From NCBI GenBank assembly GCA_049322675.1, contig JBMORM010000009.1:222132-286131 (forward strand): DNA of 64,000 nt. Direction: 5' to 3'. The position numbers were made by a program, and so were the translations under genes. Positions 35,601 to 52,021 of this stretch are shown piece after piece. The stretch is from Patescibacteria group bacterium. Its GTDB lineage: Bacteria > Patescibacteriota > JAHJAL01. The notes beneath the pieces were generated by a model. The model saw nothing but the letters and a program-made list of their open reading frames with translations, searched no databases and was not told the origin of the DNA. Positions within the stretch are counted from its first letter, which is position 1; each line of letters opens with the position of its first letter.

Positions 35601-38600
35601 CCACAAGCGACATGTTTGCTTGTACTCCGGCAAATTCAATATCAGCCGGCAACACATATCATATTGCCATGACATATGCAGGTAATTCCGATGCTTCCGG
35701 AGTAAAAATATACTTCAATGGCATTAGCCAAACAGTTACTTCATTCAGAAACAATCTAACAGGAAGTATTCAAAATAGTAGTCCAACTTTGATTGGCAAA
35801 CATGCTTATGCCGGAGGTAATTATTATCTCAATGGTTGGATGGATGAATTGAGAATATATAATATTGTTTTATCTTCTTCTCAAGTAACAAATCAATACA
35901 ACGAAGGAATAAATGCTTTAGGGCAAACTGCTGTTCAAAATAAATCCAGCCAAAATATCAAAGCTGAAGGCACAGCTTCGCAAAAAATATCTACCGGTGT
36001 GCCACTCGTCGATGCCAACACCGTCGCCCTCTGGCATTTGGATGAAACCGGCGGCACTGGTGCATATATCAAAGATAGTTCAGGAAATGGTAATAATGGA
36101 ACACCAACCGGTACTACCAGTGTAGTTGATGGTATCAGTGGCAAGGCGAGAAATTTTAATGGAACAGTAAATGATTATATTTCCATTCCATCATCTACTT
36201 CATTAAATATTAGTAGTAACATCACAATTGAAGCATGGTTATTCCGAAATGCTGCCGGTATTCAAAGAATTGTTACGAAAACTGTTGGGAATGGTGCAGC
36301 TAATAATCCTTATGATTTTGGTATTTATACAGATGACAAATTATATTTTGTTAGGGCGAGTAGTACTACACCCCAATCTTTTTTCTCTACCAACACAGTT
36401 CCAGTTAATAGTTGGTCTCATGTTGCAGTAACGGTAAATAACAATGCGTTATCTTTCTATGTTAATGGCATCGCTTCCGGTACTGGAACATTTACAATAA
36501 CACCAACAACGAACTCTAACCCAGTCTTAATTGGAACAAGAAATGATGGAGGAATTTTTAATGGGAAAATAGATGAGGTACGTGTTTCAAATATCGCCCG
36601 ATCTGCCGACGAAATCGCCGAAGCTTATCGCATGGGTCGCGAACATCGGATTACTCATTTATTGGATACTAATATTGATTTGTCTAATAATTCCAAACTG
36701 CCTTTTTATATCGCTGCTGATAAACCAGGAAATTATCTGCAAACCACGATCGGAGAATCCGCTTTTGCGAACAATGAACCAGATACAAATACAGTTGGCT
36801 TGTGGCATTTGGAAGAAGCGACCGGCAGTGGAGCGTATATTAAAGATAGCAGTAGTTATAGCAACAATGGGACGCCGGCGGCCAAAACTATTTTTGATGG
36901 CAAAATTGGCAAGGCGGTTTATGGTGCCAATATCAGTATGAGCAATGAAGCAAATTTCCGTTTCGAACGCACGCAACCATTTAGTATCAGCGGATGGATC
37001 AAGATTGCTACTCTCAGTTCCGGACGAGGATATCAAAATATTTTTGCAAAAATGCTGGGCACCAGCCCATATACCGGCTATCATTTATTGGTAGCTGATG
37101 GCGCTGATTCTGCTGTCACCGGCGCCGGTATTTTGCGATTTGGTTTGATAAATACTTGGACTACCAATACCTTGCTCATTCAGACCAACAATCGAGTAGA
37201 TGATAGTCAATGGCACTATGTCGTCGCAACCTATGATGGCACCAGCAGCGCTTCGGGAGCGAAAATATATATCGATGGTGCGCTAGTGCCCACGACCACC
37301 AAATACAATTCTTTAACAGCATCAATTGTTAACTCTTCTGCCAGTCCATATATATCAACCAGCAGTTACGGTGGGGTTGATGAAGTCCGAATTGATAAGG
37401 TTGTTCGAACAGCTGATGAAATCCGCCAAGCCTACGAAATCGGCAAACGCACCCACTCCGTCACCATCGACTTTGCCGCCGGTTTGGATAGTGGTAATTT
37501 AATTTCAAACAATAGCGATCAATCATTTACGATCGACGCCACCAATAAAGGTCTGAGTCAAAAAGGATCAAATCTTTTTGTGGGCGAAAAAGTAATTGTG
37601 CGAGAAAATTATGATGGTACGGAATATATCGCCCAAGGTTTGGTTAATTCGGTGGACGTTTCTACGGGAGCTATTGATGTGACAAGTTGGGATAGTAATT
37701 CAACTTTCCCTAGTATTGGCTTTTCTGTAAATGCCGATGTTTTTAAATGGCAAAGAGAATACTGGGATTTGACCGGTATTATGGACAATCAAATTGATAG
37801 TGCCAATCGTCTAACTATTCGTTTGGCCGATGGCGCTGAGGGACGTAATGTTTGGTTTGATGATTTTAAAACCGTCGGCAGTTATTTGTCTGATCCGACC
37901 GGCAGTTTGCTCAATTCTACCTCCAACCGTTACCTGCAATATCGAGTTATGTCTTCGACTACCGATACCAAAGTCGCTCCCAGCCTCTCTTCTGTTACTA
38001 TTAAACGACCACCAACGATTGACGAGGACAACGAGTCTATCTTGGCGATCAATGAGGGATTAAATCGTTGTAAAATAACGAGTGATCCGCTGATTAAACT
38101 AAAAAATATGGAACCGGCCAATGATCCATATTTGGTTGGGCATTGGAAAATGAATGAAACCAACGGATCGACGGTAGCTGATAGTAGTGGCAATGGCAAT
38201 AATGGCACAGCGACAGGAACCAGTATCGCTGACGGTGTTATGGATAAAGCGAGAGTGTTCAATGGCAGTAGTGATTTTGTGAGTATCGCAAATCAAGTTC
38301 TGAAACAAACACCAAATCTTTCTTTTGAGGCTTGGTTTAAACAAAATTCCACTTCAACTTATCAAAATATAATCTGGGCCACGCCGGCAGGTCCCGGGAG
38401 TGGAATCGCTTTGAATGTTGATCGTAGGGTAATTTTTCAATTGGATTTGGTGACCGGAGATTATCGTGCTTATCAGACCAACACCAATGCATATGAATTG
38501 AATACATGGAATCATGTGGTTGGTACATATAGCAACGGAATTTTTAAAATATTTTTAAATGGAAATGAACAAATAATATCACTTGCGGGAGGTACTGGAT

Positions 38601-41600
38601 CAGGCGATTTTGTCGGTGAGACCAATTATTTCATTGGGCATGAAACAAGCGGTAATTACTTTAAAGGAATGATTGACGAAGTGTCAGTATTTAACAAAAA
38701 TTTGACTCCAGAGGAGATCAAAGCACATGCCCAAAAACGTCCTTACGGAACCTACACTTCCAAAGTATTGGATTTGATAAATAATCCTCAATTAAATAGT
38801 TTAACCTGGGGTGAACTGGGAGTTCAAACCGGTAGTGGTGAAACACCTAAAGATGCCACCGGACTCGTTGCACAGTGGAATTTCAATGAGACCAGTGGAA
38901 CGACCGCCACCAACAATGCCGGTTCTTGTGGAGCGGCTTGCAATGGTACTTTAACAAATATGACAACAAGTGGACAAGATGCATCAGTTAACTCTGGTTG
39001 GACTGCTAATAACAAGAAATGGGGAGCAGGGGCGGCGATGTTCGATGGAAGTGATGATTATATAAATATTGGATCAACAAGTAATCTTGCCGTAACTAAT
39101 TTTTCCTTGGAAACTTGGGTCAAAACAAACACAACCGCACTTAGTGTTATTCTTGGAAAAAAATCAAATAGCACGGGTGGATGGTATGCATATAGATTAG
39201 CGACATATAGTGGAAAAATAAATGTCAGAGTACAACAGTCAGCTACGCCAAGTTTTTTGGATTTGGATTCCAATTTTAGTCAAATAAATAACAACGAATG
39301 GCATCATGTAGTAGTAACTTTTGATAGTGACAATAAAGTCAGAATTTATATTGACGGAAAACTGGATATTACCAGTAGTACCGGAAATGCCATTTATTAT
39401 GCCAATCAAGTTAGTGATTTTATGATTGGAACAGATGTAGATGGTACAAAAAGACTAAATGGTACTATTGACTCAACCAAAATCTATTCCCGCGCCCTTT
39501 CCGCCGACGAAATCCTTTCCAACTATCAGGCCGGCAATATCGAATTGCAAACTCGCAGCGGCGCCACGGCCGACCCCAATGATGGTTCATGGCAAGAATG
39601 GCGACCGGCCGGAAGTGGGACGGAAACAACTTTGGTAAATAACGAGAATGATAGCAGTAATTGGTCCTGGAATTCAGTCGCTGCCTATATGCCCAAATCC
39701 AAGTCTGACGATTCTGTGGTTAGACTAAATGGTAACACCTCAACCAAATTACAAACCGGCATTTTACAATCCGATGCCAACACTATTGCTCTCTGGCATC
39801 TAGACGAAACCGGCGGAGCTGGAGCGTACATCAAAGATAGTAGCGGTAATGGTAATGATGGCACACCAAGTGGAACAACTGTAATTGACGGAATAATTGG
39901 CAAAGCGAGAAGTTTCAATGGGACAAGTGATTATATTCAAAAAACTTCTGTTCCTGCACAATCTATATATTCCTTTGATATGTGGTTTAAACCACAAAAT
40001 ACAATTACCAGTAGTTCGGCCTGTATGACTTTGATGCAAATGCGTACGGGGGCAACTGGAGATTATTTTGCTTTGCAAACCGGGTCTTGTACTTCTTCTT
40101 TAACCAATGAAACTATTACAATTTTTCACGATACTCCTGGCAGAACCGGTGTTTTGAATGTGAATATTTCGAATAGTTGGCATCACATAACCGTAAATTG
40201 GGATAGTAGTATAAATGAATACAGAATATATTTGGATGGAGTTGTTCAAACAACCAATTCAGGCACTGATGGGAAAGCAGCATTTTTCAATGATCCTGAA
40301 AGAATACAAATCGGGGCATATATGTATTCCGGAACCTACTCCTCGTATTTTGCTGGACTAATCGACGAAGTACGTATTTCAAGTGCTGCCCGTACTCCCG
40401 AAGAGATCGCCGAAGCCTATCGAGCCGGCGCCAATCATCACCTCACTCGAGATTTAACTTCCGCTCAAAATCTTTCGAATAATAACAAAATATCTTTCAA
40501 TGTAGCCGCCGACCAACCAGGCACTTATCTACAAACCATGATCGGTGAATCCGCTTTTGCCAACTACGAACCCGACGCCAATACCGTGGGTTTATGGCAT
40601 TTGGAAGAAGCGACCGGATCTGGAGCGTATATAAAAGATAGTTCTAATTCAGGAAATAATGGGACGCCAACCGGAACTACATTTATTGATGGAAAAATTG
40701 GGAAAGGTAGAAGTTTCAATGGCAGTAGTGACTATATTTCAATAAGCAACAATTCCAATTTAAATCTATTAAGTGAAGATTTTGTAATTGATGTCTGGGT
40801 AAAACCTAGTACCGTTACCGGCACTCAGGAAATTATCAGTAAAAGAAATGGCGCCGTGGCCGAAGGATTTGTAATCCGACGAGAATCCGGAGTTTATAAT
40901 TTTTGGGCTACTTCCAATGGTTCGAGTTGGGATATTTCATATGGCAAGTCACTTGGAGCTGCTTCAGCTAATACTTGGTCTTATCTTGTTGTAACCCGAC
41001 AAGGTAACAACTTTTATTTCTATAACAATGGAATACAAACCGATAGCCTAACCTCGAGTGCAGCAATTCAAACAAATACCAGAAATATAAATATAGGAAG
41101 GGATGGTTCAGGACAATATTTTTCCGGTGTTATTGATGAAGTAAGATTAAAAAAAGGTGCAGGTGTTACCGGTGGACAAATTCGTCAAGCCTACGAAGTG
41201 GGCAAGCGCTCGCACAATGTCACGATTGATTTTGCCGCTTCATTGGATAGTGACAACTTGATTATCGATAGCAATGATAAATCATTTACGATCGATGCTA
41301 CTACCAAAGGTTTAAGTTACCCGGCGGAGAATTTGTTCTCCGGTGATAAGATTATTGTCCGCGAAAATTATAATGGTACCGAATATATCGCCCAAGGTAC
41401 CGTCAATGGTGTTGACCAAGATAGCGGCGCTGTCACGGTTAGCTCGTGGGATAGTGGCAGCACATTCCCGAGTGGCGGTTTTACCGTCAATGCTGATGTT
41501 TTCAAATGGCAGACAGAATACATGGATATTAGTCAAATTGCCAATGAAGACAAAGATGCCATGAGCCAAATCTCTTTGCGTTTGACCAATGGTAGTGGCG

Positions 41601-44600
41601 GACGCAATATCTGGCTCGATGATTTTGAATCGATAAACAATTATTTGACTGATCCGACCGGGAGCGCTATTGCCTCCACCAGTAATCAATATTTACAGTA
41701 TCGCGCCATTTTAACATCCAATGACACCTTGCTTACTCCGTCTTTCAACGATATTAGTTTGGATTATTCACCTCAACAATCTTCGACTTTGAGCAGTGTG
41801 TCCTCATCGGCGGCTTATTTAAATAATTTAAATAAAAATAATTTCCCGATTACCTGTCAGGGAGTGACTGCCAGTGAACCGGACTTGACGATCACCTGTC
41901 AGGCATCTTTGAATCAGAGTAATTGGTACGATGTGACCAGTGCGAATAGCCCATTGTCCAATGCCGATCTAACGGGAAATGTGGATTTTGCCGGATGGAC
42001 CGGTTATCCGGAAGCGGACGGAGAATTGACTATTTACGCTAGAACTTCCGACGGCACTTATGCAAGTCAAATAGTAAATTTTGTCGTGAATAAAGATACC
42101 GTCGATCCAGCTATTAACACTATCAACAGTGTCGCCGGTTGGACTACCACGCCTTATTTTGACAATACCGATGATGGTAATACTGAGATCATTTTTGAGA
42201 CTAGCCCCGATACTCATAGTTGCCGCTGGGACGAAAATGATTTGAGTTTTACCGCTATGACCAATACTTGTACCGCGGTTGGGGATTGTCAAATCGATTT
42301 GACCGGTCAAGGAGCTAAAACGGTTTATATCAGCTGTGATGACACGGCCGGAAATATTTTGCACCCTTCACAAACTGTAAATTATACGATCGACAGCATT
42401 GCTCCGACTACCACTCCAACTTGTAGTCCAGCGGATAATACTTATTTCAAAGACAACTTGGCGGTGACTTGTGTCAGTGGTGAAGGTGGAGATTTGGTGC
42501 GATATACTAGCGACGGTACGGATCCGACCATTTCCTCCGATCAATGGTTTAACACCAATATCAACAACACTAGCGATCTCAAATTTATTTCCTGCGACTT
42601 GGCCGGCAACTGTCTGACGACTTTTAGTCAGTATCATTATATTTTGGATAATGTGGCGCCGCCGGCGCCGATCATAAATAATGAACCGCAATACACGGCG
42701 GGGACGACAAACGCAGTTAGTTCCAACACTGTTACCGATACAGGTGTTGGCGGGGTACAATATGAATTTTGCGCTGACAATACTCGATCAATGGATATAA
42801 ATTTGGCTTTAAATAAAACGGCAACAGCTTCGTGGACTTACACCACTCAAACCCCGGCACTCGCGGTCAATAATAACACTAATGATTTTTGGGGATCAGG
42901 TGGTTATCCGCCAGCTTGGATCAGGATCGATTTGGGCAGTAAACAAAATTTTAATCAATTGAAGCTCTTGCCACAAGGTTCGCCGACCGGTACGGTATAT
43001 TATCATATTCAGGGATCAGATGACGGCAACAATTTTACTACTATCATGGCCAACGCCTCAGCCAACACAGCCGGACCGACCTGGTCAACGCATAATTTTT
43101 CGATGCAGTCATATCGTTATGTCAGAATATATTGCAATGATTGGGCCAACTCATGGGTAGGCATTCGAGAAATTGAGATATACAATACCGCTGATCAGCC
43201 TACGGCAAGCTGCATATCGTCAGGCTGGAAAGATGTGTCAAATAATATTTTCGAAAATTTATTGGACAGTACCAAATACTATTATTTTGTTCGATCTAAA
43301 GACGCTTTAAACAATTTATCCGCTTGGAGCGCTTCGGTCAATTCGATTCAGGACAATGTCAAACCGGAAATTACGGGTATAAATTCTGTGGCGGGTGATA
43401 GTTTGGCGCCTTGGGCCGACAAGACTGATGATGGGGAAACGATTGTCAATTTTTCCAGTTCGGCGGATACGGCTGACTGTTTCTGGAATACCGATGACGT
43501 GGCTTACGAGGAGATGGCCAATTTGTGCGCTACTACTTCTGCTTGTACTTTGGACCAAGTCGGAGAAGGAAACCATACTGTCTTTATACGTTGCAGCGAT
43601 ATCGCCGGCAATACGATGGATAGTTCTTTGGTATTAAACTATGCCATTGATACTATTGCCCCGACCACGGCGCCAACGTGTATACCAGCCGACAATACAT
43701 ACTTTTACGATCAATTGGTTGCAGGATGCACGCCTGGTTTTGGCGGAACACTGGTTCGTTATACCAACAATGGAAATACACCGGGAGAGTTGTCCACGAT
43801 TTGGGAAAATGATCAAACGATCAATGCTACTACCACTTTTAAATTAATTTCGTGCGACGATGCCAACAATTGTTTTAATGAACATTCAACATACACATAC
43901 AATAAAGACACTTCTCCACCACCCACACCGGTAATGACGGCGGAACCACAATTGTCGCCCGGAACGACAAATACAGTCACCAGCAATACAGTTAACGACA
44001 CTGGTGTCGGTGGAGTCAATTATCAATTTTGTTTCAGTAATAGCGACTCGACAGAAAATTGTAATAGTTCGGCGTGGTTAACTACCAATTCATACACCTT
44101 TACCAATTTGGCTCATGAGGTAAAATATTATTATTTTGTCCGGAGTAAGGACGCTTTGAATAATACCAGTGTTTGGAGCGGCAGCACGTCGTCAACTCAG
44201 GACAATGTGGCTCCGGCGATTTTGTCGATTGAAAATATCGGTGGGGACGATACTTCACCGTATTTGGATAGTACGGACGATGGAGTAACGGTGGCCAATT
44301 TTATTTCCAGTCCGGATGCGGCTTCGTGTAGATGGGCAACCGTGGATGCAGATTATGATTTGATGGTTCACAATTGCAGCAGCACTGGTAGTTGCACTTT
44401 TAATCTCACCGGCCCTTCGACCAAAATGATATATTTGCGCTGCAAAGATACAGCGGGTAATAAAATGAATTATTCGACATTGATGATGTATGATGTCGAT
44501 ATTATCCCGACTATCAATAGTATTACTTACGTCGAGGATGACGCCAATGCGCCATATTTTGATTTGACAGACAATGGGGAAACGACGATTATCTTTGGCA

Positions 44601-47600
44601 CTTCCAACGATGCGACGGCTTGTCGATGGGATATAGCCGACAGAGAATATAGCCAGATGATCAATAATTGCAGCAGTACAGAAGAATGTACAGTTAATCT
44701 AACAGGACAAGGCGCTAAAACGGTTTATTTGCGTTGCGTTGATAACCAAAATCAATCGACAGTAAATGCTTTTGAAGTAAATTATACGATTGATTCGATC
44801 GCTCCGACGACGGCGCCAACTTGTACACCGGAATCACAAATGTTTGGCGGATCAATATCGGTAAATTGTCTTGCCGGAGAAGGAGGAAACATTATTCGAT
44901 ATTCCAACGATCCCAATGATTTGGTTGATTCATCCTCGAGTGCATGGTCCGATCGGGCCATTACGACAACCACCAATTTACAATTGATTAGTTGTGACGA
45001 GGCCAATAACTGTTTTCTGGAAGCTAGTCAGTACGATTACACCAAGGATGGCACTCCACCCCCTACTCCACTTATGATTACTGAACCAACTTATACGCGA
45101 GGGACTTCCAATACGATTCGTTCACAAACAGTAACCGATGGTGGCATTGGCGGCACGATTGAATATCAATTTGGCTGGAATTTGACCGGAACTGCCGGTA
45201 GCGGAATGACAGTTACAAGCGACTGGACAACAACCTCGGAAGCGATTTTCGGAAATTTGGCCGACAATACATATTATTATTTTGTTCGGGCTAGAGATGT
45301 TTTTGAAAATACAAGCGCGTGGAGTAGTCCGGTAGCTTCGATTCAAGATAATTTGGCGGCGACTTTGACGGAAATCAATTCGGTCGCTGGCGACACAACT
45401 CCCAATGAATGGGGAGACAACACAGATGATGCTTATACGGATGTTATTTACACAGCTGATCCCGATGTTTCTGACTGCAAATGGAGCGAAGAAGATCAAA
45501 CTTATGGAGCCATGCCCAATACCTGCAATAGCGTCAATCGCTGCATTTTGAACCTGACCGGCGAAGGCGAACATAATATATATTTGCGTTGTGCCGACAA
45601 AGCTGGAAATGCTGACGCGGTTTCTTATAATCTACAATATTTTATCGATACCGCGCCGCCGACTGCCAAACCGACATGCACGGCGACCGGAGTGATCGAC
45701 GGATATTTCGCAACAAGTGTAAATGTGACGTGCAGTCCGGGGACGGGAGGAGACGAAGTACGTTATACCACTGACAACACTATCCCCACCTGGCAATCAA
45801 CATTTTGGAATAATCGCAGTTTTAATCAAACAACTACTTTGAAGGCGATTAGTTGCGACTGGGCCAATAATTGTTTTGATGAAGTGGAAACCAACGTATA
45901 TACCCAAGATTTGGTAGCGCCGCCCTTGCCAGTCATGAACGCCGAACCGGCTTATACCGCCGGATTGACCAATCTGGTCAGTGGGACGACGGTAACAGAT
46001 GTTTTGCCGGGCGTTGGTTTGGTGACATATCAATTTAAAATGAAATATTATGATGGCAGCAGTTGGGCGGAATCAGCCACGGCTTGGCTGGACCAACCGG
46101 AATACAACTTTACTGGTTTAACCCATGGTCGCACATACTATTATGCCGTCCGGGCTCGAGATGGTTTAAATAATTTACCGCCGGACAACGCTTGGAGTAG
46201 CGAAGTTTCTTCTACGCAGGACAATAATTATCCGATGGTAACCGGAGTCAATTATGTAGTCGAAGATTACGATTTGCCTTATGTTGATGAGACGGATGAT
46301 AGCAACACTTATATCGAATACACTACTAGTGATTCACCAGTGACTTGCCGATGGAGTGATACCAATGAGAGTTATGGCGACATGGAAAATACTTGCGAGA
46401 ATACGAGCGGATGCACATTGACCTTGAATAATATTGGTGACAAAACAGTTTATATGCGTTGTACTGACGCAGCTAATAATCAGTCACCCACGTCATATCG
46501 TCTGGATTATCGCGTGGATCCCAATGGCGATGGCCGTCCGCCCCAAATTACCACTATCAATACCGTGGCCGGTGATAATACTAGTCCGTATTTTGATCAA
46601 ACAGACAATAGTCAAACTCTGGTGGAATATACCGCGACGACTGATGCCACCACTTGTCACTGGGGAACGGTCGAAGGAACATATAATGATTTGCCCAACA
46701 CTTGTACGAGTGTCAGTAATTGTAATTTGAATTTGGCTGGCAATGGTACCAAAACTATATATATGCGCTGTATCGATGGTGCCGGCAATAGACAGCGCAG
46801 TTCACGATTATTGGTTTATACTATTGATTCCTTACCGCCGACGGTCAATCTGGTGAGTGTGGCCGGCGACACGTTTGCTCCGTATTATGACACATCGGAT
46901 GACAATAACACGGTTATAAATATTAATAGTAATGATAATTTGACCGGAGTGCAAAACTGCCGCTGGGACGAAAATGACCAAAGTTATGGAGCGATGGCGA
47001 ATAATTGTGAAAATAATAATCAATGTAATTTTTCGACATACGAAGGAGAAAGTAATCACACGGGTTATATTCGTTGTACAGACAATATTGGTAATGCGAT
47101 GAGTAGTTCACAGACGGTTACTTTTGGTATTGACCAAACAGAACCGACGGTCAATAGTATCGTTGACGTGGCCGGAGATACCAGTACTCCGTATTATGAT
47201 CGAAGCAATAACACTGATACGGTGATTAATTTTAATTCATCAGACAATTTTTCCGGGGTGGCTGATTGCCGCTGGTCAACTACTGATATCGGTTATGACA
47301 ATATGTATTCGGGTGGCGAACCTGCTTATTATCGTAACTGCTCGACGAGCAGTTGCGCAGTGGGAAGTGATTACATTTACAATTCTTTCTGGGGTGAGGG
47401 CAATCATACAGTTTACTTGCGTTGTATTGATATTGCCGGCAATCGTACCTCAACCTCCTATCCAGTCAATTTGACAATCGATTCCATACCGCCAACCGTC
47501 AATTCAATAATTAGCGTAGAAAATGATCTGACAGCACCGTATTTTGATTATACTGACAATGCTTTGACAGAAATAAAATATAGCGCCAGCGATAATGCGC

Positions 47601-50600
47601 TGGGTATTGCCGGTTGTCGCTGGGATACAAATAATGTCAATTATGAAGTTATGGGACAAGACTGTGATATCAATGATGCTACTTGTGACATCAATGAGTC
47701 TGGTCAGGGTTGGCATAATGTTTTTCTCAAATGTATTGATCTGGCCGGAAATACCAATAGTTATAATACTTATGAATACAATGGCAATTTTGATGAAACA
47801 ATATTGGTTCCAGCCCTGCGAGCCAATTACTATATCGATACTTCAGCTTCCAATATCATAATTGATTCCGTAAATGGGCGGACCGATACTCAACATTATG
47901 ACGACAATACTGATGATGGGCAGACGGTGATCAATTTTCACAATGTTACCGCCTTGGACAGTAATACGGCAGCGGAAGATATTGCCGAATGTAAATGGGA
48001 TAGCGAGGACAAAACATATACAGAAATGACCCAGGTTTGTGCTTCGACTACTAGTTGCGTCAGTAATCTAACCGGGGAAGGAAACAAAACAATATTTATA
48101 CGCTGCAAGGATAATCAAGATAATATGACCGCCAGCAAACAAGTTGATTACAAAATTGACCTGACTCAACCACAGATAACCAATTTGATATCAGTAGCAG
48201 GTGATACGACAGTGCCATATTATGACACCAAACCGGATGACTTTTACTCTCAAGATTCTTGGCACAATCTATCAACAGCGATTTTTACAACTTCCGATAA
48301 TTTGGCCGGGGTCCAGACTTGTCGTTGGGATACAAGTGATAAAAATTATGACACGATGAGCAACGAATGTAATTCGGCCAGCAGTTGCGCAGTCAATATT
48401 GCCGATCAGGGCGTGCACAACGTATATGTCCGCTGCCGTGACTGGGCGGGGAATCCAATGAGTTCATCACTGAATTATGAATATACATACGATGTTCAGG
48501 GACCAACGATCAGTTTAAATGTCGTGGAAAATGATATGACTTTGCCATATTTTGACTATACCGACAACGGAAATACGGCGATTGATTTTGCAGTTGATGA
48601 TAATGTTTTGGGAGTAGCCGGTTGTAAATGGGATCACAACACAAGTAATTACAATTTGATGACTTACACTTGCGCCAATTTGGGATTGTGTATTTTTGAC
48701 ACAATGGGCGAAGAAGAACAGACGAATTATATTTCTTGTATCGACGAAGGTGGAAACGCTTCCAGTCAAACAGTAAATTATTGGATTGACACTCGCCCAC
48801 CGATAATTACCAGTATTACTTCGGTCGCTGGTGACACAACAGCCAATGATTACAATGACAATACTGACAATAGAGATACTTTGGTGATTTTTAATACCTT
48901 GGCTGAAGATACAGCTGAATGTAAATGGAGCCAAAATAATCTAGCCTACGATAGTATGAGTAATGTTTGCGAAGGAGCTGATCGCTGTCGTCTAAATTTG
49001 ACGGGCGACGGGGAAAAGACAGTTTATCTACGATGCAAAGATCAGCAAAATAAAAAAGCGATTGCGCCCTATGTTTTGTCTTACAATATTGATACCACAC
49101 CGCCAAACATAACTAGTATTACTCATGTGGCTTCGGATTATTCCGCTCCCTATTTTGATCCCAACATGGATTTTATAACTCCGATTAGTTTTTCATCTTA
49201 TGACAATGTTTCAGGAATCGAATCTTGCCAGTATCATATGGGTGATGCATTTTACAAATATAGTTGCGACAACAACAATCTGTGTACTGTCAGAGAATTT
49301 ACCGGTATTTCCAATCGTTATGGCAGTCATACGGCTTATATCAAATGCAAAGACTACGCTCAAAACGAGATGGTGGATTATTATCCGGTAAATTACACGA
49401 CAGATTATTACGGTCCGGATATCGACTTGATTAGTATCGCCGAGGACACTACAGCCCCATATTATGACACCTCCGATGATGGAAATACAGTGGTAAGGAT
49501 TGAAACCAGCGACTTGGCGGGGGCGACAGCTTGCCGGTGGGGTATCAATCCCGATCCAGTCCACTTGTTGGATTACAAGCCAAACTACAGTCAGTTGGAT
49601 AATATTTGCGAATCAACCGAACAATGCACTTTGTATTTGATGGGACAAGGAACGAAAACTATTTATATGCGGTGCATAGATAGCTTGGGTAATCAGACTA
49701 GTAGCAATGATAGTGAAAATCGGCCGTTTGTTTTTAATTACACCATTGATAGTTCAGCCGACGGGACTCCGCCGCGAATTAGCAAAATCAATTCAGTAGC
49801 CGGAGACACAACCGCAGTTTATTACGATAATTCCGACAATCAGGATACGGTGATCAGTTATCAAGTGGACGCTGATACCAATAACTGTAAATGGGATGTA
49901 GCAAATTTGAGTTATGACAATTTGGCCAATATTTGCGAAAGCACCAATACATGCAATTTGAATTTGGCGGGAGAAGGAGCGAAGAAAGTATATTTCAAAT
50001 GTATAGATAACGCCGGCAATAAAACTATTAATCCATATATTTTGCGTTACACGATCGACATCACCGCTCCCACTGTTTTAGATATAGTTACTATTGCCAG
50101 TGACCCCAATAATCCATATTTTGACAATACCGACGACGAACAAACTTTATTGCTTTACCACGCCAGTAGCGATACGGCGACCTGCAAATGGAGCACCAAC
50201 AACCAATCATATGCCGCCATGCCCAATACTTGCGCCTCAACCGAACAATGCAATTTTAACCTAAGTGGTTGGGGAGAAAAAAATGTCTTTATGCGCTGTA
50301 TAGACCATGCCGGCAATATTGGCTTATCTTCATACGCTATTAGTTATACTTTGGATGCCGGCGCCGATGGTACGCCGCCGATAATCCAATCCATTGATTC
50401 GGTTGCGGGTGATGAAACGCCAACTTATTATGACAGTAGCGACGATAGCAATACCGAGGTTTTATTTACTGCTTCACCCGACTCCACTCAATGTAAATGG
50501 AATACACTGGATGTCCCTTATGAACAAATGCAAAACTTCTGTGAATCAACCGGACAATGTATTCTCAATGTGAGCGGGCGCGGAGCAAAGACCGTGTTTA

Positions 50601-52021
50601 TAAAATGTATGGATGATGCCGGCAATATGGCGGTCAATTCGTATGTCTTGAATTATATTATTGAGACTATGACGCCGAGAATAACGGCAGTAACGGCGGT
50701 GGCCGGCGATATGAATTATGTTTATGTGGACCCGACCGATGACGGACAAACTTTGGTGGAATATGAAACTACAGAGGGGACAACTGAATGTAAATGGGAT
50801 GTTTTGGATACAAATTACGATAACATGAATAATACCTGTCAAAATACGGAAAGATGCTTACTGAATCTAATCGGGGGCGGCAGTCAAAAGGTTTATATGA
50901 GGTGCAAAAATGCGGCCAATATGAAGTCAGATACATCTTTTAAATTGAATTACGAAATCGGGCAACCGGCAACTGATGAAAATCACTCATCAATTACCGC
51001 CCAAATAAAGGATTCTATCCCCCGCCATCCCAACACGGTAACGGTTTACTATAATCCTGCTTTTGAAAACGCAGTCAGTGACGGATCAATTAAATTAATT
51101 TTGTCAGATGAATTTGATTTATCAGGTATAACCAAAGATGATGTCATGGCTTTGGGTGGAGGGGTGGAATGGGTTAACAACGAAGTAATAACCGCAGCGG
51201 GGGAACAGATTGCCAGGAATGAAACATTGTGGGATAAATTGGCCAAGATGATAGCTCAACCACAAAATGCTCAAGCGGATGGAGAAAATTCAATCATCTT
51301 TCCATATGTTGGCGACTTGGACGGAGACAATAGTGATTTGCAATTTATTATTGGCAATGCCAATAAAATAATAAATCCGTTCACGGCCGGCACTTATCAC
51401 GTAACACTAGAAGTCAGAGATGAAGCCGGGGAAGTGATCGAGACATTGGAGGCGATGATCGCGATTAGCGAAGAGGTAAATGTAACCGCGAGTATACCGT
51501 CGATATTAACTTTTTCGATCAATCCAGTGGATAGCGGCGAGGCGGTCAATAATAATATAACTAACCAGCCGACTTTAACATCAGATAGTGTCAATTTTGG
51601 CGTTTTCCAAGCGGCTGATGACCGAATCGCTGCTCATGATTTGAACGTTTCTACCAACGCCGCCAATGGTTATATAGTGACAACACAGTACACTGGGGCT
51701 ATGACCGGTAACGCCGGTATGATGGCAGATTTCATTGGCACCAATTTGAACCCGCAAACATGGTCAAATCCGACCGGTTTGGGTGTGGAGAGTTATTTTG
51801 GATATACAACCACTGACTTTTCTTTGTCGCAAGTTCCAACAGACCGTTTTGCGAGCAATAACTGGGCGGCATTTTCTGTCATTCCTGCCGAAGTTGCTTC
51901 CAATAATCAATCAGTAAATGAAGAAATTACCAGAATCGGTTACCGGTTGCAAATCACCGACAAACAACCAGCCGGGGTTTACAACACGTCAGTTACATAT
52001 ATTTGCACTTCGATTTATTGA
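32699..52021 (+). CDS. Giant secreted multidomain protein 5 (about 6440 aa). Domains in order: signal peptide; conserved N-terminal module; about 9 LamG/ConA-like modules; four cycles of four-Cys, CHB_HEX_C-like and FN3-like modules with one F5/8 discoidin insert; about 15 further tandem four-Cys modules; conserved C-terminal module. Its start overlaps the stop of gene 4.
   Basis: ATG lies at 32699 and 32702. The ORF track opens at TTG 32693, which forms a TTGA overlap with the TGA stop of gene 4 (32694-32696). The N-terminus MMKKIKTKNERWFDRILTSTALIFCYGLSLISTVTA is signal-like. The C-terminus …SVTYICTSIY precedes a TGA stop. Confidence 0.9.
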   Translation: MMKKIKTKNERWFDRILTSTALIFCYGLSLISTVTANEDSDWMATSWGSNFNYQYQDENFVASVGDKLTDTPDTITLQVKNPEPGESWWEKWQTEDYKTMTLTLLDGEQITNDPTDQSMSDAEDKAQELEEQRSSLLNKVGSWIDLDPSSELYKTDDDQLMNQNVIDDVDSEYTIWPDYGIKENLIVKGTNGQATNTFYYQLKLDEGIEYFSTDDGNPFNLPENTYYFVDQKGNYLAHFLPILVYDSNHNLTNQVNLEINPTSDEQILMVKVQVDYAWMIDSDRQYPIIIDPTIVHNTNTDFGNGRAIDRMSLNDNILSNAEMPTATDSSVVGLWHMDEESGTSVNDYSGNNITGTSVNTTVEDGKFGKAKYFNNINTYVQIPASSAFNFGTNDWTFETWIKPSSFEACDTIYSQNNPYTILRFDCERGGSYWEIYNNGVQYDLPAHGMVAGNWYHVAVVRSNNFVYLYQNGNLLSFVSVGSNSTNLSGAIWRIGNSTWNGEYFHGDIDEFVVRNRSLTPEQVKLEAQKKSYGLYDSSVLDLGSDFSKYDKISWEEQGVQTGNGETPYSTEGLVTQWNFNETSGTTAYNNAGSCEGTCNATLSNMTTTSQDAAPNSGWTANNKRWGGGGLMFDGSNDFISISHNSNFNLTSSWTVETWIKRTGPTTTNSDGSIWKFIVRKGTYNTFGLLYDPTSGKVYSNIYNGSAWKNSTSQSVLDIGQWHHIVGVYEGNDSGTLKIFFDGVLENTTTGVGTPSTNTDPLSIIGTSNISSVSTYWPAILDSTRIYSRALAGDEILSNYQAGNIELQTRSGETADPDDGSWENWKPAGSGTETTLDNSDNLYQYNTTDSGLVSYWPMDELTDSSVEDVKGTNNGTATGTKIIDGKFGKARSFNGTTSDYISIPHSADLDFERTSTFSISSWFKSNTTGYESIVSKTDSAYKGWTLFKLANSDPNRPNSVCLILTNVNATSDMFACTPANSISAGNTYHIAMTYAGNSDASGVKIYFNGISQTVTSFRNNLTGSIQNSSPTLIGKHAYAGGNYYLNGWMDELRIYNIVLSSSQVTNQYNEGINALGQTAVQNKSSQNIKAEGTASQKISTGVPLVDANTVALWHLDETGGTGAYIKDSSGNGNNGTPTGTTSVVDGISGKARNFNGTVNDYISIPSSTSLNISSNITIEAWLFRNAAGIQRIVTKTVGNGAANNPYDFGIYTDDKLYFVRASSTTPQSFFSTNTVPVNSWSHVAVTVNNNALSFYVNGIASGTGTFTITPTTNSNPVLIGTRNDGGIFNGKIDEVRVSNIARSADEIAEAYRMGREHRITHLLDTNIDLSNNSKLPFYIAADKPGNYLQTTIGESAFANNEPDTNTVGLWHLEEATGSGAYIKDSSSYSNNGTPAAKTIFDGKIGKAVYGANISMSNEANFRFERTQPFSISGWIKIATLSSGRGYQNIFAKMLGTSPYTGYHLLVADGADSAVTGAGILRFGLINTWTTNTLLIQTNNRVDDSQWHYVVATYDGTSSASGAKIYIDGALVPTTTKYNSLTASIVNSSASPYISTSSYGGVDEVRIDKVVRTADEIRQAYEIGKRTHSVTIDFAAGLDSGNLISNNSDQSFTIDATNKGLSQKGSNLFVGEKVIVRENYDGTEYIAQGLVNSVDVSTGAIDVTSWDSNSTFPSIGFSVNADVFKWQREYWDLTGIMDNQIDSANRLTIRLADGAEGRNVWFDDFKTVGSYLSDPTGSLLNSTSNRYLQYRVMSSTTDTKVAPSLSSVTIKRPPTIDEDNESILAINEGLNRCKITSDPLIKLKNMEPANDPYLVGHWKMNETNGSTVADSSGNGNNGTATGTSIADGVMDKARVFNGSSDFVSIANQVLKQTPNLSFEAWFKQNSTSTYQNIIWATPAGPGSGIALNVDRRVIFQLDLVTGDYRAYQTNTNAYELNTWNHVVGTYSNGIFKIFLNGNEQIISLAGGTGSGDFVGETNYFIGHETSGNYFKGMIDEVSVFNKNLTPEEIKAHAQKRPYGTYTSKVLDLINNPQLNSLTWGELGVQTGSGETPKDATGLVAQWNFNETSGTTATNNAGSCGAACNGTLTNMTTSGQDASVNSGWTANNKKWGAGAAMFDGSDDYINIGSTSNLAVTNFSLETWVKTNTTALSVILGKKSNSTGGWYAYRLATYSGKINVRVQQSATPSFLDLDSNFSQINNNEWHHVVVTFDSDNKVRIYIDGKLDITSSTGNAIYYANQVSDFMIGTDVDGTKRLNGTIDSTKIYSRALSADEILSNYQAGNIELQTRSGATADPNDGSWQEWRPAGSGTETTLVNNENDSSNWSWNSVAAYMPKSKSDDSVVRLNGNTSTKLQTGILQSDANTIALWHLDETGGAGAYIKDSSGNGNDGTPSGTTVIDGIIGKARSFNGTSDYIQKTSVPAQSIYSFDMWFKPQNTITSSSACMTLMQMRTGATGDYFALQTGSCTSSLTNETITIFHDTPGRTGVLNVNISNSWHHITVNWDSSINEYRIYLDGVVQTTNSGTDGKAAFFNDPERIQIGAYMYSGTYSSYFAGLIDEVRISSAARTPEEIAEAYRAGANHHLTRDLTSAQNLSNNNKISFNVAADQPGTYLQTMIGESAFANYEPDANTVGLWHLEEATGSGAYIKDSSNSGNNGTPTGTTFIDGKIGKGRSFNGSSDYISISNNSNLNLLSEDFVIDVWVKPSTVTGTQEIISKRNGAVAEGFVIRRESGVYNFWATSNGSSWDISYGKSLGAASANTWSYLVVTRQGNNFYFYNNGIQTDSLTSSAAIQTNTRNINIGRDGSGQYFSGVIDEVRLKKGAGVTGGQIRQAYEVGKRSHNVTIDFAASLDSDNLIIDSNDKSFTIDATTKGLSYPAENLFSGDKIIVRENYNGTEYIAQGTVNGVDQDSGAVTVSSWDSGSTFPSGGFTVNADVFKWQTEYMDISQIANEDKDAMSQISLRLTNGSGGRNIWLDDFESINNYLTDPTGSAIASTSNQYLQYRAILTSNDTLLTPSFNDISLDYSPQQSSTLSSVSSSAAYLNNLNKNNFPITCQGVTASEPDLTITCQASLNQSNWYDVTSANSPLSNADLTGNVDFAGWTGYPEADGELTIYARTSDGTYASQIVNFVVNKDTVDPAINTINSVAGWTTTPYFDNTDDGNTEIIFETSPDTHSCRWDENDLSFTAMTNTCTAVGDCQIDLTGQGAKTVYISCDDTAGNILHPSQTVNYTIDSIAPTTTPTCSPADNTYFKDNLAVTCVSGEGGDLVRYTSDGTDPTISSDQWFNTNINNTSDLKFISCDLAGNCLTTFSQYHYILDNVAPPAPIINNEPQYTAGTTNAVSSNTVTDTGVGGVQYEFCADNTRSMDINLALNKTATASWTYTTQTPALAVNNNTNDFWGSGGYPPAWIRIDLGSKQNFNQLKLLPQGSPTGTVYYHIQGSDDGNNFTTIMANASANTAGPTWSTHNFSMQSYRYVRIYCNDWANSWVGIREIEIYNTADQPTASCISSGWKDVSNNIFENLLDSTKYYYFVRSKDALNNLSAWSASVNSIQDNVKPEITGINSVAGDSLAPWADKTDDGETIVNFSSSADTADCFWNTDDVAYEEMANLCATTSACTLDQVGEGNHTVFIRCSDIAGNTMDSSLVLNYAIDTIAPTTAPTCIPADNTYFYDQLVAGCTPGFGGTLVRYTNNGNTPGELSTIWENDQTINATTTFKLISCDDANNCFNEHSTYTYNKDTSPPPTPVMTAEPQLSPGTTNTVTSNTVNDTGVGGVNYQFCFSNSDSTENCNSSAWLTTNSYTFTNLAHEVKYYYFVRSKDALNNTSVWSGSTSSTQDNVAPAILSIENIGGDDTSPYLDSTDDGVTVANFISSPDAASCRWATVDADYDLMVHNCSSTGSCTFNLTGPSTKMIYLRCKDTAGNKMNYSTLMMYDVDIIPTINSITYVEDDANAPYFDLTDNGETTIIFGTSNDATACRWDIADREYSQMINNCSSTEECTVNLTGQGAKTVYLRCVDNQNQSTVNAFEVNYTIDSIAPTTAPTCTPESQMFGGSISVNCLAGEGGNIIRYSNDPNDLVDSSSSAWSDRAITTTTNLQLISCDEANNCFLEASQYDYTKDGTPPPTPLMITEPTYTRGTSNTIRSQTVTDGGIGGTIEYQFGWNLTGTAGSGMTVTSDWTTTSEAIFGNLADNTYYYFVRARDVFENTSAWSSPVASIQDNLAATLTEINSVAGDTTPNEWGDNTDDAYTDVIYTADPDVSDCKWSEEDQTYGAMPNTCNSVNRCILNLTGEGEHNIYLRCADKAGNADAVSYNLQYFIDTAPPTAKPTCTATGVIDGYFATSVNVTCSPGTGGDEVRYTTDNTIPTWQSTFWNNRSFNQTTTLKAISCDWANNCFDEVETNVYTQDLVAPPLPVMNAEPAYTAGLTNLVSGTTVTDVLPGVGLVTYQFKMKYYDGSSWAESATAWLDQPEYNFTGLTHGRTYYYAVRARDGLNNLPPDNAWSSEVSSTQDNNYPMVTGVNYVVEDYDLPYVDETDDSNTYIEYTTSDSPVTCRWSDTNESYGDMENTCENTSGCTLTLNNIGDKTVYMRCTDAANNQSPTSYRLDYRVDPNGDGRPPQITTINTVAGDNTSPYFDQTDNSQTLVEYTATTDATTCHWGTVEGTYNDLPNTCTSVSNCNLNLAGNGTKTIYMRCIDGAGNRQRSSRLLVYTIDSLPPTVNLVSVAGDTFAPYYDTSDDNNTVININSNDNLTGVQNCRWDENDQSYGAMANNCENNNQCNFSTYEGESNHTGYIRCTDNIGNAMSSSQTVTFGIDQTEPTVNSIVDVAGDTSTPYYDRSNNTDTVINFNSSDNFSGVADCRWSTTDIGYDNMYSGGEPAYYRNCSTSSCAVGSDYIYNSFWGEGNHTVYLRCIDIAGNRTSTSYPVNLTIDSIPPTVNSIISVENDLTAPYFDYTDNALTEIKYSASDNALGIAGCRWDTNNVNYEVMGQDCDINDATCDINESGQGWHNVFLKCIDLAGNTNSYNTYEYNGNFDETILVPALRANYYIDTSASNIIIDSVNGRTDTQHYDDNTDDGQTVINFHNVTALDSNTAAEDIAECKWDSEDKTYTEMTQVCASTTSCVSNLTGEGNKTIFIRCKDNQDNMTASKQVDYKIDLTQPQITNLISVAGDTTVPYYDTKPDDFYSQDSWHNLSTAIFTTSDNLAGVQTCRWDTSDKNYDTMSNECNSASSCAVNIADQGVHNVYVRCRDWAGNPMSSSLNYEYTYDVQGPTISLNVVENDMTLPYFDYTDNGNTAIDFAVDDNVLGVAGCKWDHNTSNYNLMTYTCANLGLCIFDTMGEEEQTNYISCIDEGGNASSQTVNYWIDTRPPIITSITSVAGDTTANDYNDNTDNRDTLVIFNTLAEDTAECKWSQNNLAYDSMSNVCEGADRCRLNLTGDGEKTVYLRCKDQQNKKAIAPYVLSYNIDTTPPNITSITHVASDYSAPYFDPNMDFITPISFSSYDNVSGIESCQYHMGDAFYKYSCDNNNLCTVREFTGISNRYGSHTAYIKCKDYAQNEMVDYYPVNYTTDYYGPDIDLISIAEDTTAPYYDTSDDGNTVVRIETSDLAGATACRWGINPDPVHLLDYKPNYSQLDNICESTEQCTLYLMGQGTKTIYMRCIDSLGNQTSSNDSENRPFVFNYTIDSSADGTPPRISKINSVAGDTTAVYYDNSDNQDTVISYQVDADTNNCKWDVANLSYDNLANICESTNTCNLNLAGEGAKKVYFKCIDNAGNKTINPYILRYTIDITAPTVLDIVTIASDPNNPYFDNTDDEQTLLLYHASSDTATCKWSTNNQSYAAMPNTCASTEQCNFNLSGWGEKNVFMRCIDHAGNIGLSSYAISYTLDAGADGTPPIIQSIDSVAGDETPTYYDSSDDSNTEVLFTASPDSTQCKWNTLDVPYEQMQNFCESTGQCILNVSGRGAKTVFIKCMDDAGNMAVNSYVLNYIIETMTPRITAVTAVAGDMNYVYVDPTDDGQTLVEYETTEGTTECKWDVLDTNYDNMNNTCQNTERCLLNLIGGGSQKVYMRCKNAANMKSDTSFKLNYEIGQPATDENHSSITAQIKDSIPRHPNTVTVYYNPAFENAVSDGSIKLILSDEFDLSGITKDDVMALGGGVEWVNNEVITAAGEQIARNETLWDKLAKMIAQPQNAQADGENSIIFPYVGDLDGDNSDLQFIIGNANKIINPFTAGTYHVTLEVRDEAGEVIETLEAMIAISEEVNVTASIPSILTFSINPVDSGEAVNNNITNQPTLTSDSVNFGVFQAADDRIAAHDLNVSTNAANGYIVTTQYTGAMTGNAGMMADFIGTNLNPQTWSNPTGLGVESYFGYTTTDFSLSQVPTDRFASNNWAAFSVIPAEVASNNQSVNEEITRIGYRLQITDKQPAGVYNTSVTYICTSIY
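42090..46230 (+). repeat. Four tandem cycles of three module types in giant gene 5. A is a four-Cys module of about 100 aa (…SVAGDTT.PY.D.TDD..T…YT.S.DA..C.W…D..Y..M.N.C.S…C.L.L.G.G.K.VY.RC.D.AGN). B is a CHB_HEX_C-like module (IAPTTAPTC.P…..VRYT.DG..P……KAISCD.ANNCF). C is an FN3-like module (…YYYFVR.KDALNN.S.WS).
   Basis: The A modules start near 42090, 43370, 44210/44510 and 45360. The B modules start near 42400, 43660, 44800 and 45650. The C modules start near 42650, 43900, 45050 and 45900. Confidence 0.6.
42812..43185 (+). other. F5/8 type C (discoidin) domain inserted inside the first FN3-like module of giant protein 5.
   Basis: NKTATASWTYTTQTPALAVNNNTNDFWGSGGYPPAWIRIDLGSKQNFNQLKLLPQGSPTGTVYYHIQGSDDGNNFTTIMANAS……YRYVRIYCNDWANSWVGIREIEIY fits the discoidin pattern …A.A.DG…T.W………WI.vDLG….i..V.l………y.i..S.DG..Wt…. 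Confidence 0.55.
46230..50950 (+). repeat. In-frame tandem array of about 15 copies of the four-Cys A module in giant gene 5, with a period of about 300-330 nt.
   Basis: Copies start near 46240, 46540, 46850, 47150, 47500, 47850, 48180, 48510, 48810, 49110, 49430, 49790, 50080, 50390 and 50690. Each ends …(V/I)Y(M/L/I)RC.D.AGN…… Y.ID. with conserved C.W, NTC, C.LNL and RC cysteines. Nucleotide identity between copies is only moderate, so the array is old or under diversifying selection. Confidence 0.7.
51030..52021 (+). other. Conserved bipartite C-terminal module of about 330 aa (beta-sandwich-like domain plus a terminal domain of about 170 aa). The same module is found at 13775-14685 (gene 2), 20815-21681 (gene 3), 31775-32696 (gene 4) and, for the terminal half only, at about 4213-4633 (gene 1). 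It is a candidate surface-anchoring or sorting module.
   Basis: The shared pattern is L.F.INPV..G…NG..TN……FG…..DDRIAAHDL..STNA.NGY.V…………DF.G.N..P..W..P.G….YFGYTT.D..L…..RFA…W..F…..EV……TTR.GYRLQI…..GVY…V.YI.TS.Y-stop. All five proteins end in a [TS].Y tripeptide. Confidence 0.6.

What the first reader, a model, noticed from the sequence alone, without database searches (positions are those of the whole stretch)
51030..52021. Conserved bipartite C-terminal module of about 330 aa ending in [TS].Y on all five giant proteins is a candidate anchoring or sorting domain
All five proteins terminate with the same module, which contains DDRIAAHDL, STNA.NGY, YFGYTT, TTR.GYRLQI and ends …Y.(I/V)T(S/P).Y followed by the stop. 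Conservation at the extreme C-terminus, with an aromatic final residue, suggests a cell-envelope anchoring or secretion-sorting function, analogous in role to WxL, SLH or T9SS CTD domains. I could not match it convincingly to any of those families.
Basis: seen in the sequence. Interest (0 to 1): 0.7.

Follow-up and report, generated by a model that had tools for sequence, protein, structure and literature searches.

The report
Pilus-subunit module on giant adhesins
The shared tail of these giant secreted proteins is a copy of the building block of the recently described "Pam" pilus of ultra-small (CPR) bacteria, so it probably plugs the giant sugar-binding proteins into a surface filament rather than acting as a wall-binding or sorting tag.

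Summary
The module is real in four of the five giant ORFs (G2-G5: 29-44% identity over about 300 aa, family HMM E 1e-64 to 1e-82). G1 shares only the last 55-80 residues, weakly.

It has two parts: a nine-strand beta-sandwich and a C-terminal pilin-like Ig domain (AF2 pLDDT 93-97). It is not specific to giant proteins. Most relatives are stand-alone secreted proteins of about 360 aa from Patescibacteria.

In 74 of 80 metagenome loci, the stand-alone genes sit next to a membrane-anchored two-Ig-domain protein. NCBIfam calls the C-terminal domain CPR_Pam_pilin_C (full-length matches, E 2.8e-9 to 2.2e-3, below the curated cut-off). Small neighbours in related loci are bona fide PamT.

A 2026 preprint solved Pam pili by cryo-EM. 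They have the same N-terminal domain, linker strand and truncated-Ig C-terminal domain, and assemble by donor-strand exchange with membrane-anchored PapD-like chaperones.

Best reading: the giants are LamG-rich adhesins fused to a Pam pilin module, which attaches them to a pilus. "Sorting or wall-binding domain found only on large proteins" is not.

WxL membership failed every sequence test, but the Pam-type chaperones are homologous to WxL-interacting proteins.

The parts
50987..51466 (+). [quoted passage not shown] Carries a 28-aa insertion relative to G4.
   Evidence: Alignment with G4 and stand-alone pilins; boundaries mapped; AF2 model of the G4 equivalent has nine strands, pLDDT 93.
51467..51580 (+). 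G5 linker region containing the conserved strand V-N-V-T-A-S-I-P (family consensus IAVTASVDP). This is the candidate donor strand.
   Evidence: Strongly conserved block in A2/A5 consensus. It is unstructured in the monomer model, residues 1-12. The preprint states the donated linker is among the most conserved parts of Pam pilins.
51581..52018 (+). G5 C-terminal truncated-Ig pilin domain (Pam pilin CTD), ending ...TYICTSIY, then stop at 52019-52021.
31737..32693 (+). G4 module (NTD 31737-32141, linker 32142-32252, CTD 32253-32693).
   Evidence: Module HMM E 1.5e-78; NF058581 E 5.6e-6, full profile; AF2 model m990a32961fc2; coordinates.
20725..21678 (+). G3 module (NTD 20725-21129, linker 21130-21243 with diverged strand LTIEVDIP, CTD 21244-21678).
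   Evidence: Module HMM E 1.6e-70; NF058581 E 2.2e-3, profile 3-148; coordinates.
13759..14682 (+). G2 module (NTD 13759-14160, linker 14161-14274 with diverged strand LAFAFHVP, CTD 14275-14682).
   Evidence: Module HMM E 7.7e-64; NF058581 E 3.7e-5 in two stretches; coordinates.
4460..4630 (+). G1 C-terminal ~57 aa hairpin (...TQVDFKAVADWTVDAGTYNSSVSVIVTPRY). This is the only part of G1 that aligns with the module, and membership is doubtful.
   Evidence: hmmsearch domain i-E 6.6e-5; hhalign probability 21%; no NCBIfam hit; no PamT-like match.
4771..52021 (+). Bodies of the four giant carriers G2-G5. N-terminal signal or anchor sequences, then arrays of LamG/ConA-like lectin domains (5, 7 and 9 Laminin_G_3 stretches in G2, G4 and the first half of G5), DUF2341, F5/8 type C, CHB_HEX_C and sialidase-N-like domains.
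   Evidence: Pfam scans; N-termini.

Best explanation
The module is a complete Pam-type pilin. Pam pili are the donor-strand-exchange pili recently described in CPR/Patescibacteria. [quoted passage not shown] In this window it is fused to the C-terminal end of at least four giant, Sec-exported, lectin-rich proteins.

Inferred mechanism:
- After export, the open C-terminal domain of a giant is capped by a membrane-anchored PapD/WxLIP-like chaperone.
- It is then completed by the linker strand of the next pilin subunit.
- This covalently-free but very stable strand insertion makes the giant a subunit of a Pam pilus, most simply the first (distal) one. Its adhesin array is thereby displayed at the tip or along the filament, and the filament is tethered to the membrane at its base.

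Shown: homology to the Pam pilin family, the fold, the obligatory C-terminal position, and the operon coupling of stand-alone relatives with chaperone-like proteins and PamT.

Inferred: that the giants are actually polymerised, and at which position in the filament.
For: - Sequence: NCBIfam CPR_Pam_pilin_C matches the C-terminal domain of G5, G4, G2 and G3 (E 2.8e-9, 5.6e-6, 3.7e-5, 2.2e-3). The match covers the whole 148-position profile in G5, G4 and G3, comes as two partial stretches in G2, and in all four ends at the last residue.
- Transitive link: the module HMM joins the giants (E 1e-64 to 1e-82) to stand-alone proteins. It also recovers loci whose pilins score 139.5 bits on that model (cut-off 55) and whose small first genes are PamT equivalogs (301.8 and 262.5 bits, cut-off 240).
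- This matches the cryo-EM description of PamA/PamB: nine-strand NTD, linker, truncated-Ig CTD that takes the neighbour's linker, a single-domain tip pilin PamT, and chaperones PamC/D with a C-terminal TM helix (doi 10.64898/2026.03.03.709456).
- Context: 74 of 80 metagenome loci with a stand-alone module gene have an adjacent gene for a protein with a signal peptide, two Ig domains and a C-terminal TM helix. The same holds in 5 of 5 looked-up contigs.
- Position: the module ends at the last residue in 262 of 270 relatives, and the last residue is Y or F in 260 of 265.
- Taxonomy: named hits are Patescibacteria, Roizman-/Gottesmanbacteria and Microgenomates. The window is from a Patescibacteria MAG. 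This agrees with the reported distribution.
- 43 of 265 relatives carry N-terminal extensions, 20 of them >=1000 aa. These include giants with the C-terminal domain only (P0174, P0186, P0204), which is the FimH/PapG-like tip-adhesin layout.
Against: - The NCBIfam scores of the giants (18-37 bits) are below the curated cut-off of 55.
- No chaperone-like, PamT-like or stand-alone pilin gene lies in the 64-kb window.
- None lies next to giant relatives in four other contigs: L015, L016, L018, L019. Whether this genome has a pam operon is unknown.
- The linker strand is well kept in G4/G5 (VTASVP/VTASIP) but diverged in G2/G3.
- G1 cannot be placed in the family.
- No complex prediction or experiment was possible, so donor-strand insertion into the giants' C-terminal domain is inferred from homology only.
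Confidence: 0.7

Rival explanations
1. Static surface anchoring in the manner proposed for WxL clusters. The C-terminal domain of each giant is permanently completed by a strand from a membrane-anchored WxLIP/PamC-D-like or PamR-like protein. The giants then sit singly on the cell surface and are not part of a filament.
For: - The partner proteins of stand-alone relatives are homologous to Firmicutes WxLIP (hhalign 96.6%, E 4.8e-10; 60 of 70 hit PF06030; profile hits solved EfmWxLIP1, E 0.005).
- For WxL, AF2 predicts a WxLIP strand completing the WxL sandwich (PMC10599100).
- The layout of a large protein with lectin domains plus a C-terminal acceptor domain parallels large WxL/CscC proteins (PMC9772566; Pfam LamG arrays).
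- PamR is proposed to cap and anchor a terminal subunit.
Against: - The giants G2-G5 keep the whole pilin, with NTD and linker, not only the acceptor domain. That is unnecessary for mere capping.
- Relatives of the module are shown by cryo-EM to polymerise.
- No partner gene lies near the giants.
Confidence: 0.2
2. One reading: a peptidoglycan/S-layer-binding domain or a secretion-sorting domain (WxL, SLH, T9SS-CTD-like), recognised by an export or attachment machine.
For: Strict C-terminal position with a conserved terminal aromatic residue. All carriers are secreted.
Against: - No Pfam match to WxL, SLH, T9SS CTD or any other family in 129 members.
- hhalign against a 45-sequence WxL profile gives probability <=3.3%.
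- Most family members consist of nothing but this module, so it cannot be a tag for a passenger.
- The fold and the named family are those of a pilin.
- There is no LPXTG or hydrophobic tail: the proteins stop at ...T(S/P)xY.
Confidence: 0.05
3. The giants polymerise with one another through their own linkers and C-terminal domains. They would form a separate, very thick adhesive fibre or surface coat that is independent of ordinary Pam pili.
For: Five carriers are encoded in tandem, four with a complete NTD-linker-CTD unit. G4/G5 keep a canonical linker. No stand-alone pilin lies nearby.
Against: - Thousands of residues per subunit attached to each NTD would crowd a filament with a 51-52 A rise.
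- Linkers of G2/G3 are diverged.
- A chaperone would still be needed and none is nearby.
- There is no precedent.
Confidence: 0.05

Closest known systems
Pam pili of CPR bacteria (PamA, PamB, PamE, PamT; chaperones PamC/PamD; anchor PamR). Troman et al., bioRxiv 2026, doi 10.64898/2026.03.03.709456; NCBIfam NF058581 and NF058579.
   Same: Same domain plan: nine-strand NTD, conserved linker, truncated-Ig CTD at the extreme C-terminus. Same phylum. Significant full-length matches to the CTD model. Stand-alone relatives lie in operons with PamT and TM-anchored two-Ig-domain proteins.
   Different: Here the pilin is the last ~5-14% of proteins of 2,316-6,442 aa carrying lectin arrays. The genes form a tandem array away from any chaperone gene. 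The scores are below the curated cut-off. The preprint does not mention such fusions, adhesins or LamG domains.
Two-domain tip adhesins of chaperone-usher pili (FimH, PapG, CfaE, CsuE, CupB6).
   Different: There is no outer membrane or usher in CPR. The adhesin part is 10-40 times larger. G2-G5 also keep an NTD and a linker, so unlike FimH they could in principle donate a strand as well.
WxL/Csc cell-surface clusters of Firmicutes (small WxL, large WxL/CscC, WxLIP = DUF916-DUF3324-TM).
   Same: Both have small stand-alone and large multi-domain proteins sharing a strictly C-terminal domain. Both have ConA/LamG-like lectin domains in the large proteins. Both have a partner with a signal peptide, two Ig domains and a C-terminal TM helix, and that partner is homologous between the two systems.
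   Different: The module itself shows no detectable sequence relationship to WxL: no Pfam hit, hhalign <=3.3%, no dual WxL motifs. WxL proteins are described as peptidoglycan-bound, not filament-forming. In Firmicutes the large protein is inside the cluster.
TLP-1a/b pond-water fibrils (PDB 9IKJ/9IKK; CryoSeek, PMC11494351).
   Different: It is a single-domain protomer. The donor is an N-terminal extension from subunit n+4. It forms a tubular fibril and is attributed to a Flavobacteriales-like protein.

Membership tests
Pam pilin (CPR donor-strand pilus subunit) | Match to NCBIfam NF058581 CPR_Pam_pilin_C at the curated cut-off (55 bits). | tested here: not met
   G5 37.2, G4 26.5, G2 23.9, G3 18.1 bits; G1 no hit. 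E-values (2.8e-9 to 2.2e-3) are significant. G5, G4 and G3 cover profile 2/3-148 and G2 matches in two stretches. All four end at the C-terminus. This is a divergent subfamily rather than a non-member.
Pam pilin (CPR donor-strand pilus subunit) | Homology to proteins that do pass the curated models. | tested here: met
   One module HMM hits G2-G5 (E 1e-64 to 1e-82) and the pilins of loci L081-L100. A pilin from one of these loci scores 139.5 bits on NF058581, and the small first genes score 301.8 and 262.5 bits on PamT NF058579.
Pam pilin (CPR donor-strand pilus subunit) | Nine-strand beta-sandwich NTD, linker strand, truncated Ig-like CTD. | tested here: met
   [not shown]
Pam pilin (CPR donor-strand pilus subunit) | CTD groove filled by the linker of the next subunit (donor-strand exchange). 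| not testable with these tools
Pam pilin (CPR donor-strand pilus subunit) | Encoded in a pam operon with membrane-anchored PapD-like chaperones. | tested here: not met
   True for stand-alone relatives (74 of 80 loci). There is no such gene in this window, nor next to giant relatives in L015, L016, L018 or L019. The rest of the genome could not be searched.
Pam pilin (CPR donor-strand pilus subunit) | Sec signal peptide and restriction to CPR. | tested here: met
   N-termini of G2-G5 are signal- or anchor-like. 201 of 237 relatives starting with M have a signal-like N-terminus by a crude rule. All named sources are Patescibacteria lineages.
WxL domain (Pfam PF13731) | Match to the WxL profile. 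| tested here: not met
   None of 129 members hits PF13731 even at E<=10. hhalign against 5- and 45-sequence WxL profiles gives probability 1.7-3.3%, with only a 10-residue local match.
WxL domain (Pfam PF13731) | Two Trp-x-Leu motifs 68-106 residues apart. | tested here: not met
   The module has G[YW][RQ]x and [YL]x[IA] strands only ~20 residues apart. This is a resemblance by eye only.
WxL domain (Pfam PF13731) | Strictly C-terminal, in clusters with WxLIP (DUF916-DUF3324-TM). | tested here: inconclusive
   The C-terminal position is met. The partner of stand-alone relatives is a WxLIP homologue. No WxL structure was available for a fold comparison (afdb50 unavailable).
Sortase / LPXTG, SLH, T9SS CTD anchors | LPXTG plus hydrophobic tail, or SLH / T9SS-CTD profile match. 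| tested here: not met
   The proteins end ...T(S/P)xY directly before the stop. No such Pfam hits were found.

The most novel reading that the evidence does not exclude
Giant lectin-array adhesins of CPR bacteria are loaded onto Pam pili through a fused pilin module. In addition, the Pam system and the WxL/Csc clusters of Firmicutes are two branches of one ancient, usher-less, membrane-anchored-chaperone donor-strand system of single-membrane bacteria. If so, WxL 'wall-binding' proteins would also be assembled by strand donation from WxLIP, and 'large WxL' proteins and these giants would be functional counterparts.
Probability: 0.35. Interest if true: 0.8.

Novelty: new variant of a known kind. 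Interest (0 to 1): 0.55.

Why it matters
CPR/Patescibacteria live attached to host cells, and how they recognise hosts is largely unknown. The preprint that defined Pam pili left open how the filaments bind the host.

A tandem set of interchangeable, 2,300-6,400-residue lectin-rich proteins, each ending in a pilin module, would be a direct candidate for the missing adhesins. It would also be a source of host-range variation.

The homology between Pam-type chaperones and WxL-interacting proteins gives a testable mechanistic hypothesis for the long-unexplained WxL clusters of enterococci, listeriae and lactobacilli.

Tried and rejected
- WxL membership: bona fide WxL and WxLIP genes were fetched from Bacillus, Virgibacillus and Listeria plasmids and a 45-sequence WxL profile was built. 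hhalign was negative. Motif resemblances seen by eye were not supported.
- Fold comparison with WxL: impossible.
- G1: tested against the module, the C-terminal-domain-only and the PamT-like profiles and by shuffling. Nothing beyond the terminal hairpin was found.
- Finding the window's own contig upstream of G1 failed. It is not in genome contigs or metagenome contigs, and the look-up of G2 returned only an 18-kb Logan contig.
- The TLP-1 fibril lead was followed. It is a structural neighbour only, attributed to a Flavobacteriales-like protein.

Full report
**Observation**

The window holds five co-directional giant ORFs: G1 5-4633 (truncated by the window edge), G2 4771-14685, G3 14731-21681, G4 21822-32696 and G5 32693-52021. 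They are followed by a phosphoglycerate mutase gene and a polysaccharide-export cluster.

The last ~305-350 residues of G2-G5 align colinearly at 29-44% identity. A family HMM hits them at E 7.7e-64 to 1.8e-82, always up to the last residue.

G1 is different. The HMM misses it. Only its last ~57 residues align (i-E 6.6e-5; hhalign 21%), and shuffling tests are significant only against G4.

**What the module is not**

Pfam finds nothing in the five tails or in 129 family members. PDB sequence searches find nothing.

**Relatives**

A first search found only nine relatives, several of them complete ~350-aa proteins with a signal peptide. A profile search found a large family of stand-alone 340-390-aa hypothetical proteins from Patescibacteria (Roizman-, Gottesmanbacteria, Microgenomates).

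An exhaustive HMM search found 2,746 clusters (E<=1e-3), 364 of them at E<=1e-30. Figures for the 270 sequences in hand:

| Feature | Count |
|---|---|
| Module ends at the last residue | 262 of 270 |
| Terminal residue Y or F | 260 of 265 |
| Protein <=420 aa | 222 of 265 |
| Protein 421-999 aa | 23 of 265 |
| Protein >=1000 aa | 20 of 265 |
| C-terminal domain only | 16 of 265 |

The module is thus a free-standing protein that is sometimes fused behind large proteins. It is not a tag peculiar to giants.

**Structure**

AF2 with a 129-sequence alignment gives a confident two-domain model of the G4 module (pLDDT 93.2). Domain 1 has nine strands and is followed by a conserved but unstructured linker.

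The G5 C-terminal domain modelled alone has pLDDT 96.7 and pTM 0.90. The whole model gives only generic tandem-Ig hits.

**Genomic context of relatives**

In every looked-up contig, the stand-alone genes are flanked by a ~300-330-aa protein with a signal peptide, two Ig-like domains and a C-terminal TM helix plus basic tail. Often a ~140-aa cupredoxin-like membrane protein follows.

In 80 metagenome loci fetched with a pilin alignment, 74 have this partner adjacent. Four of the six exceptions are contigs of <=2.4 kb.

Two operon types appear:
- (pilin-partner) x 2 plus the small cupredoxin-like protein.
- Small ~245-aa protein, pilin, pilin, partner.

**Identification**

NCBIfam release 20 names the C-terminal domain: NF058581 CPR_Pam_pilin_C, 'Pam pilus system pilin subunit'.

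| Protein | E-value | Bits |
|---|---|---|
| G5 | 2.8e-9 | 37.2 |
| G4 | 5.6e-6 | 26.5 |
| G2 | 3.7e-5 | 23.9 |
| G3 | 2.2e-3 | 18.1 |
| G1 | no hit | - |

G5, G4 and G3 match over essentially the whole 148-position profile, G2 matches in two stretches, and all four end at the C-terminus. All are below the 55-bit cut-off.

Pilins from the second operon type score 139.5 bits. Their small first genes are PamT equivalogs (301.8 and 262.5 bits; cut-off 240).

The source is a 2026 preprint (doi 10.64898/2026.03.03.709456). It reports cryo-EM of the filaments of Ca. Mycosynbacter amalyticus:
- PamA and PamB each have a nine-strand NTD, a linker strand and a truncated Ig-like CTD that accepts the neighbour's linker.
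- PamT is a single-domain tip pilin.
- PamC/D are PapD/FimC-like chaperones with a C-terminal TM helix.
- PamR is a membrane anchor.
- The system is CPR-specific and is found mainly in Saccharimonadia and Microgenomatia.

Every structural and contextual feature found independently here fits this description.

**The giants**

G2-G5 have signal- or anchor-like N-termini. They carry arrays of LamG/ConA-like lectin domains, DUF2341, F5/8 type C, CHB_HEX_C and sialidase-N-like modules. NCBI annotates them only as DUF2341 or LamG proteins of a Patescibacteria MAG.

The preprint does not mention adhesins, giant proteins, LamG or such fusions.

The best explanation is that these are adhesin-pilin fusions, in which the pilin module lets them be incorporated into a Pam pilus by donor-strand exchange. 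The most likely position is the distal (first) subunit, as with FimH and PapG. Because NTD and linker are retained, other positions are possible.

Caveats:
- No chaperone or stand-alone pilin gene is in the window or next to giant relatives.
- The linker is diverged in G2/G3.
- The rest of the genome could not be reached.

**WxL**

Genuine WxL and WxLIP genes were retrieved from plasmids and a 45-member WxL profile was built.

The module shows no detectable sequence relationship to WxL (hhalign <=3.3%). A fold comparison was not possible.

The partner proteins, however, are homologous to WxLIP:
- hhalign gives 96.6%, E 4.8e-10, over 160 columns.
- 60 of 70 hit Pfam PF06030 at E<=0.01, best 7.4e-8.
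- Their profile finds the solved EfmWxLIP1 at E 0.005.

For WxL clusters, a WxLIP strand is predicted to complete the WxL sandwich (PMC10599100). The large WxL proteins carry lectin-like domains ahead of a strictly C-terminal WxL domain (PMC9772566).

So the thing 'works like' a WxL cluster in several respects without the module being a detectable WxL domain. No paper in the library links WxL with Patescibacteria.

**Verdict**

The module belongs to a family that was named very recently. The giants are an undescribed architectural variant, a pilin fused to huge lectin arrays in a tandem set of five. They may be the adhesins of this pilus system.

Interest is moderate. The family itself is known, but the fusion and the chaperone-WxLIP link are new, testable leads.

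Noticed in passing
Related loci, e.g. L001 11157-12068, L002 9067-9987, L013 11099-12031; alignment A7 (70 sequences from L021-L098): The membrane-anchored two-Ig-domain proteins next to Pam-type pilin genes (presumably PamC/D-type chaperones) are homologous to Firmicutes WxL-interacting proteins (DUF916/DUF3324). 60 of 70 hit PF06030, hhalign gives 96.6%, and their profile hits solved EfmWxLIP1. The Pam preprint does not mention this link.
   Followed up: yes
L001 12070-12489, L002 11143-11565, L013 12035-12451, and 37 ORFs among loci L021-L076: A ~130-145-aa protein with an N-terminal TM segment and a weak Cupredoxin_1 match closes the (pilin-chaperone) x 2 operon type. Its function is unknown.
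   Followed up: partly
L069-L100 versus L021-L068: There are two operon layouts. One is pilin-chaperone-pilin-chaperone-cupredoxin-like. The other is PamT-pilin-pilin-chaperone. Only the second contains genes that pass NCBIfam's curated Pam cut-offs.
   Followed up: partly
window 3431-4630 (G1 C-terminus): G1 ends with Ig-like domains (weak Kre9_KNH and Big_7 hits) and a terminal domain that shares only its last hairpin with the module. It resembles neither the NTD-CTD pilins nor PamT, and may be a further divergent acceptor domain or be unrelated.
   Followed up: partly
L002 11811-13133 (-), L012 11799-13154 (-), L024 7217-8587 (-), L025 8250-9677 (-): Chaperone-like proteins of ~450 aa are encoded on the opposite strand beside a further pilin gene. 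They carry an extra C-terminal region with weak HTH-type Pfam hits, which is odd for an extracytoplasmic protein.
   Followed up: no
window 52072-53664; L015 5219-6817; L016 4812-6413; L018 5265-6866: The last giant gene is followed by the 2,3-bisphosphoglycerate-independent phosphoglycerate mutase gene in this window and in three related contigs. The giant array therefore sits at a conserved chromosomal position.
   Followed up: partly
window 55186-63997: A cluster on the - strand encodes a 1000-aa GT1-GT2 fusion, two methyltransferases, a GT2 (+ strand), and Wzt-like ABC ATPase and ABC-2 permease genes. This is a polysaccharide synthesis and export locus next to the adhesin array.
   Followed up: no
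[not shown]
   Followed up: partly
window 32693-32696 and 14685-14731: G4 and G5 overlap by 4 nt, and G2/G3 are 45 nt apart. This suggests that the giants are co-transcribed and partly translationally coupled.
   Followed up: no
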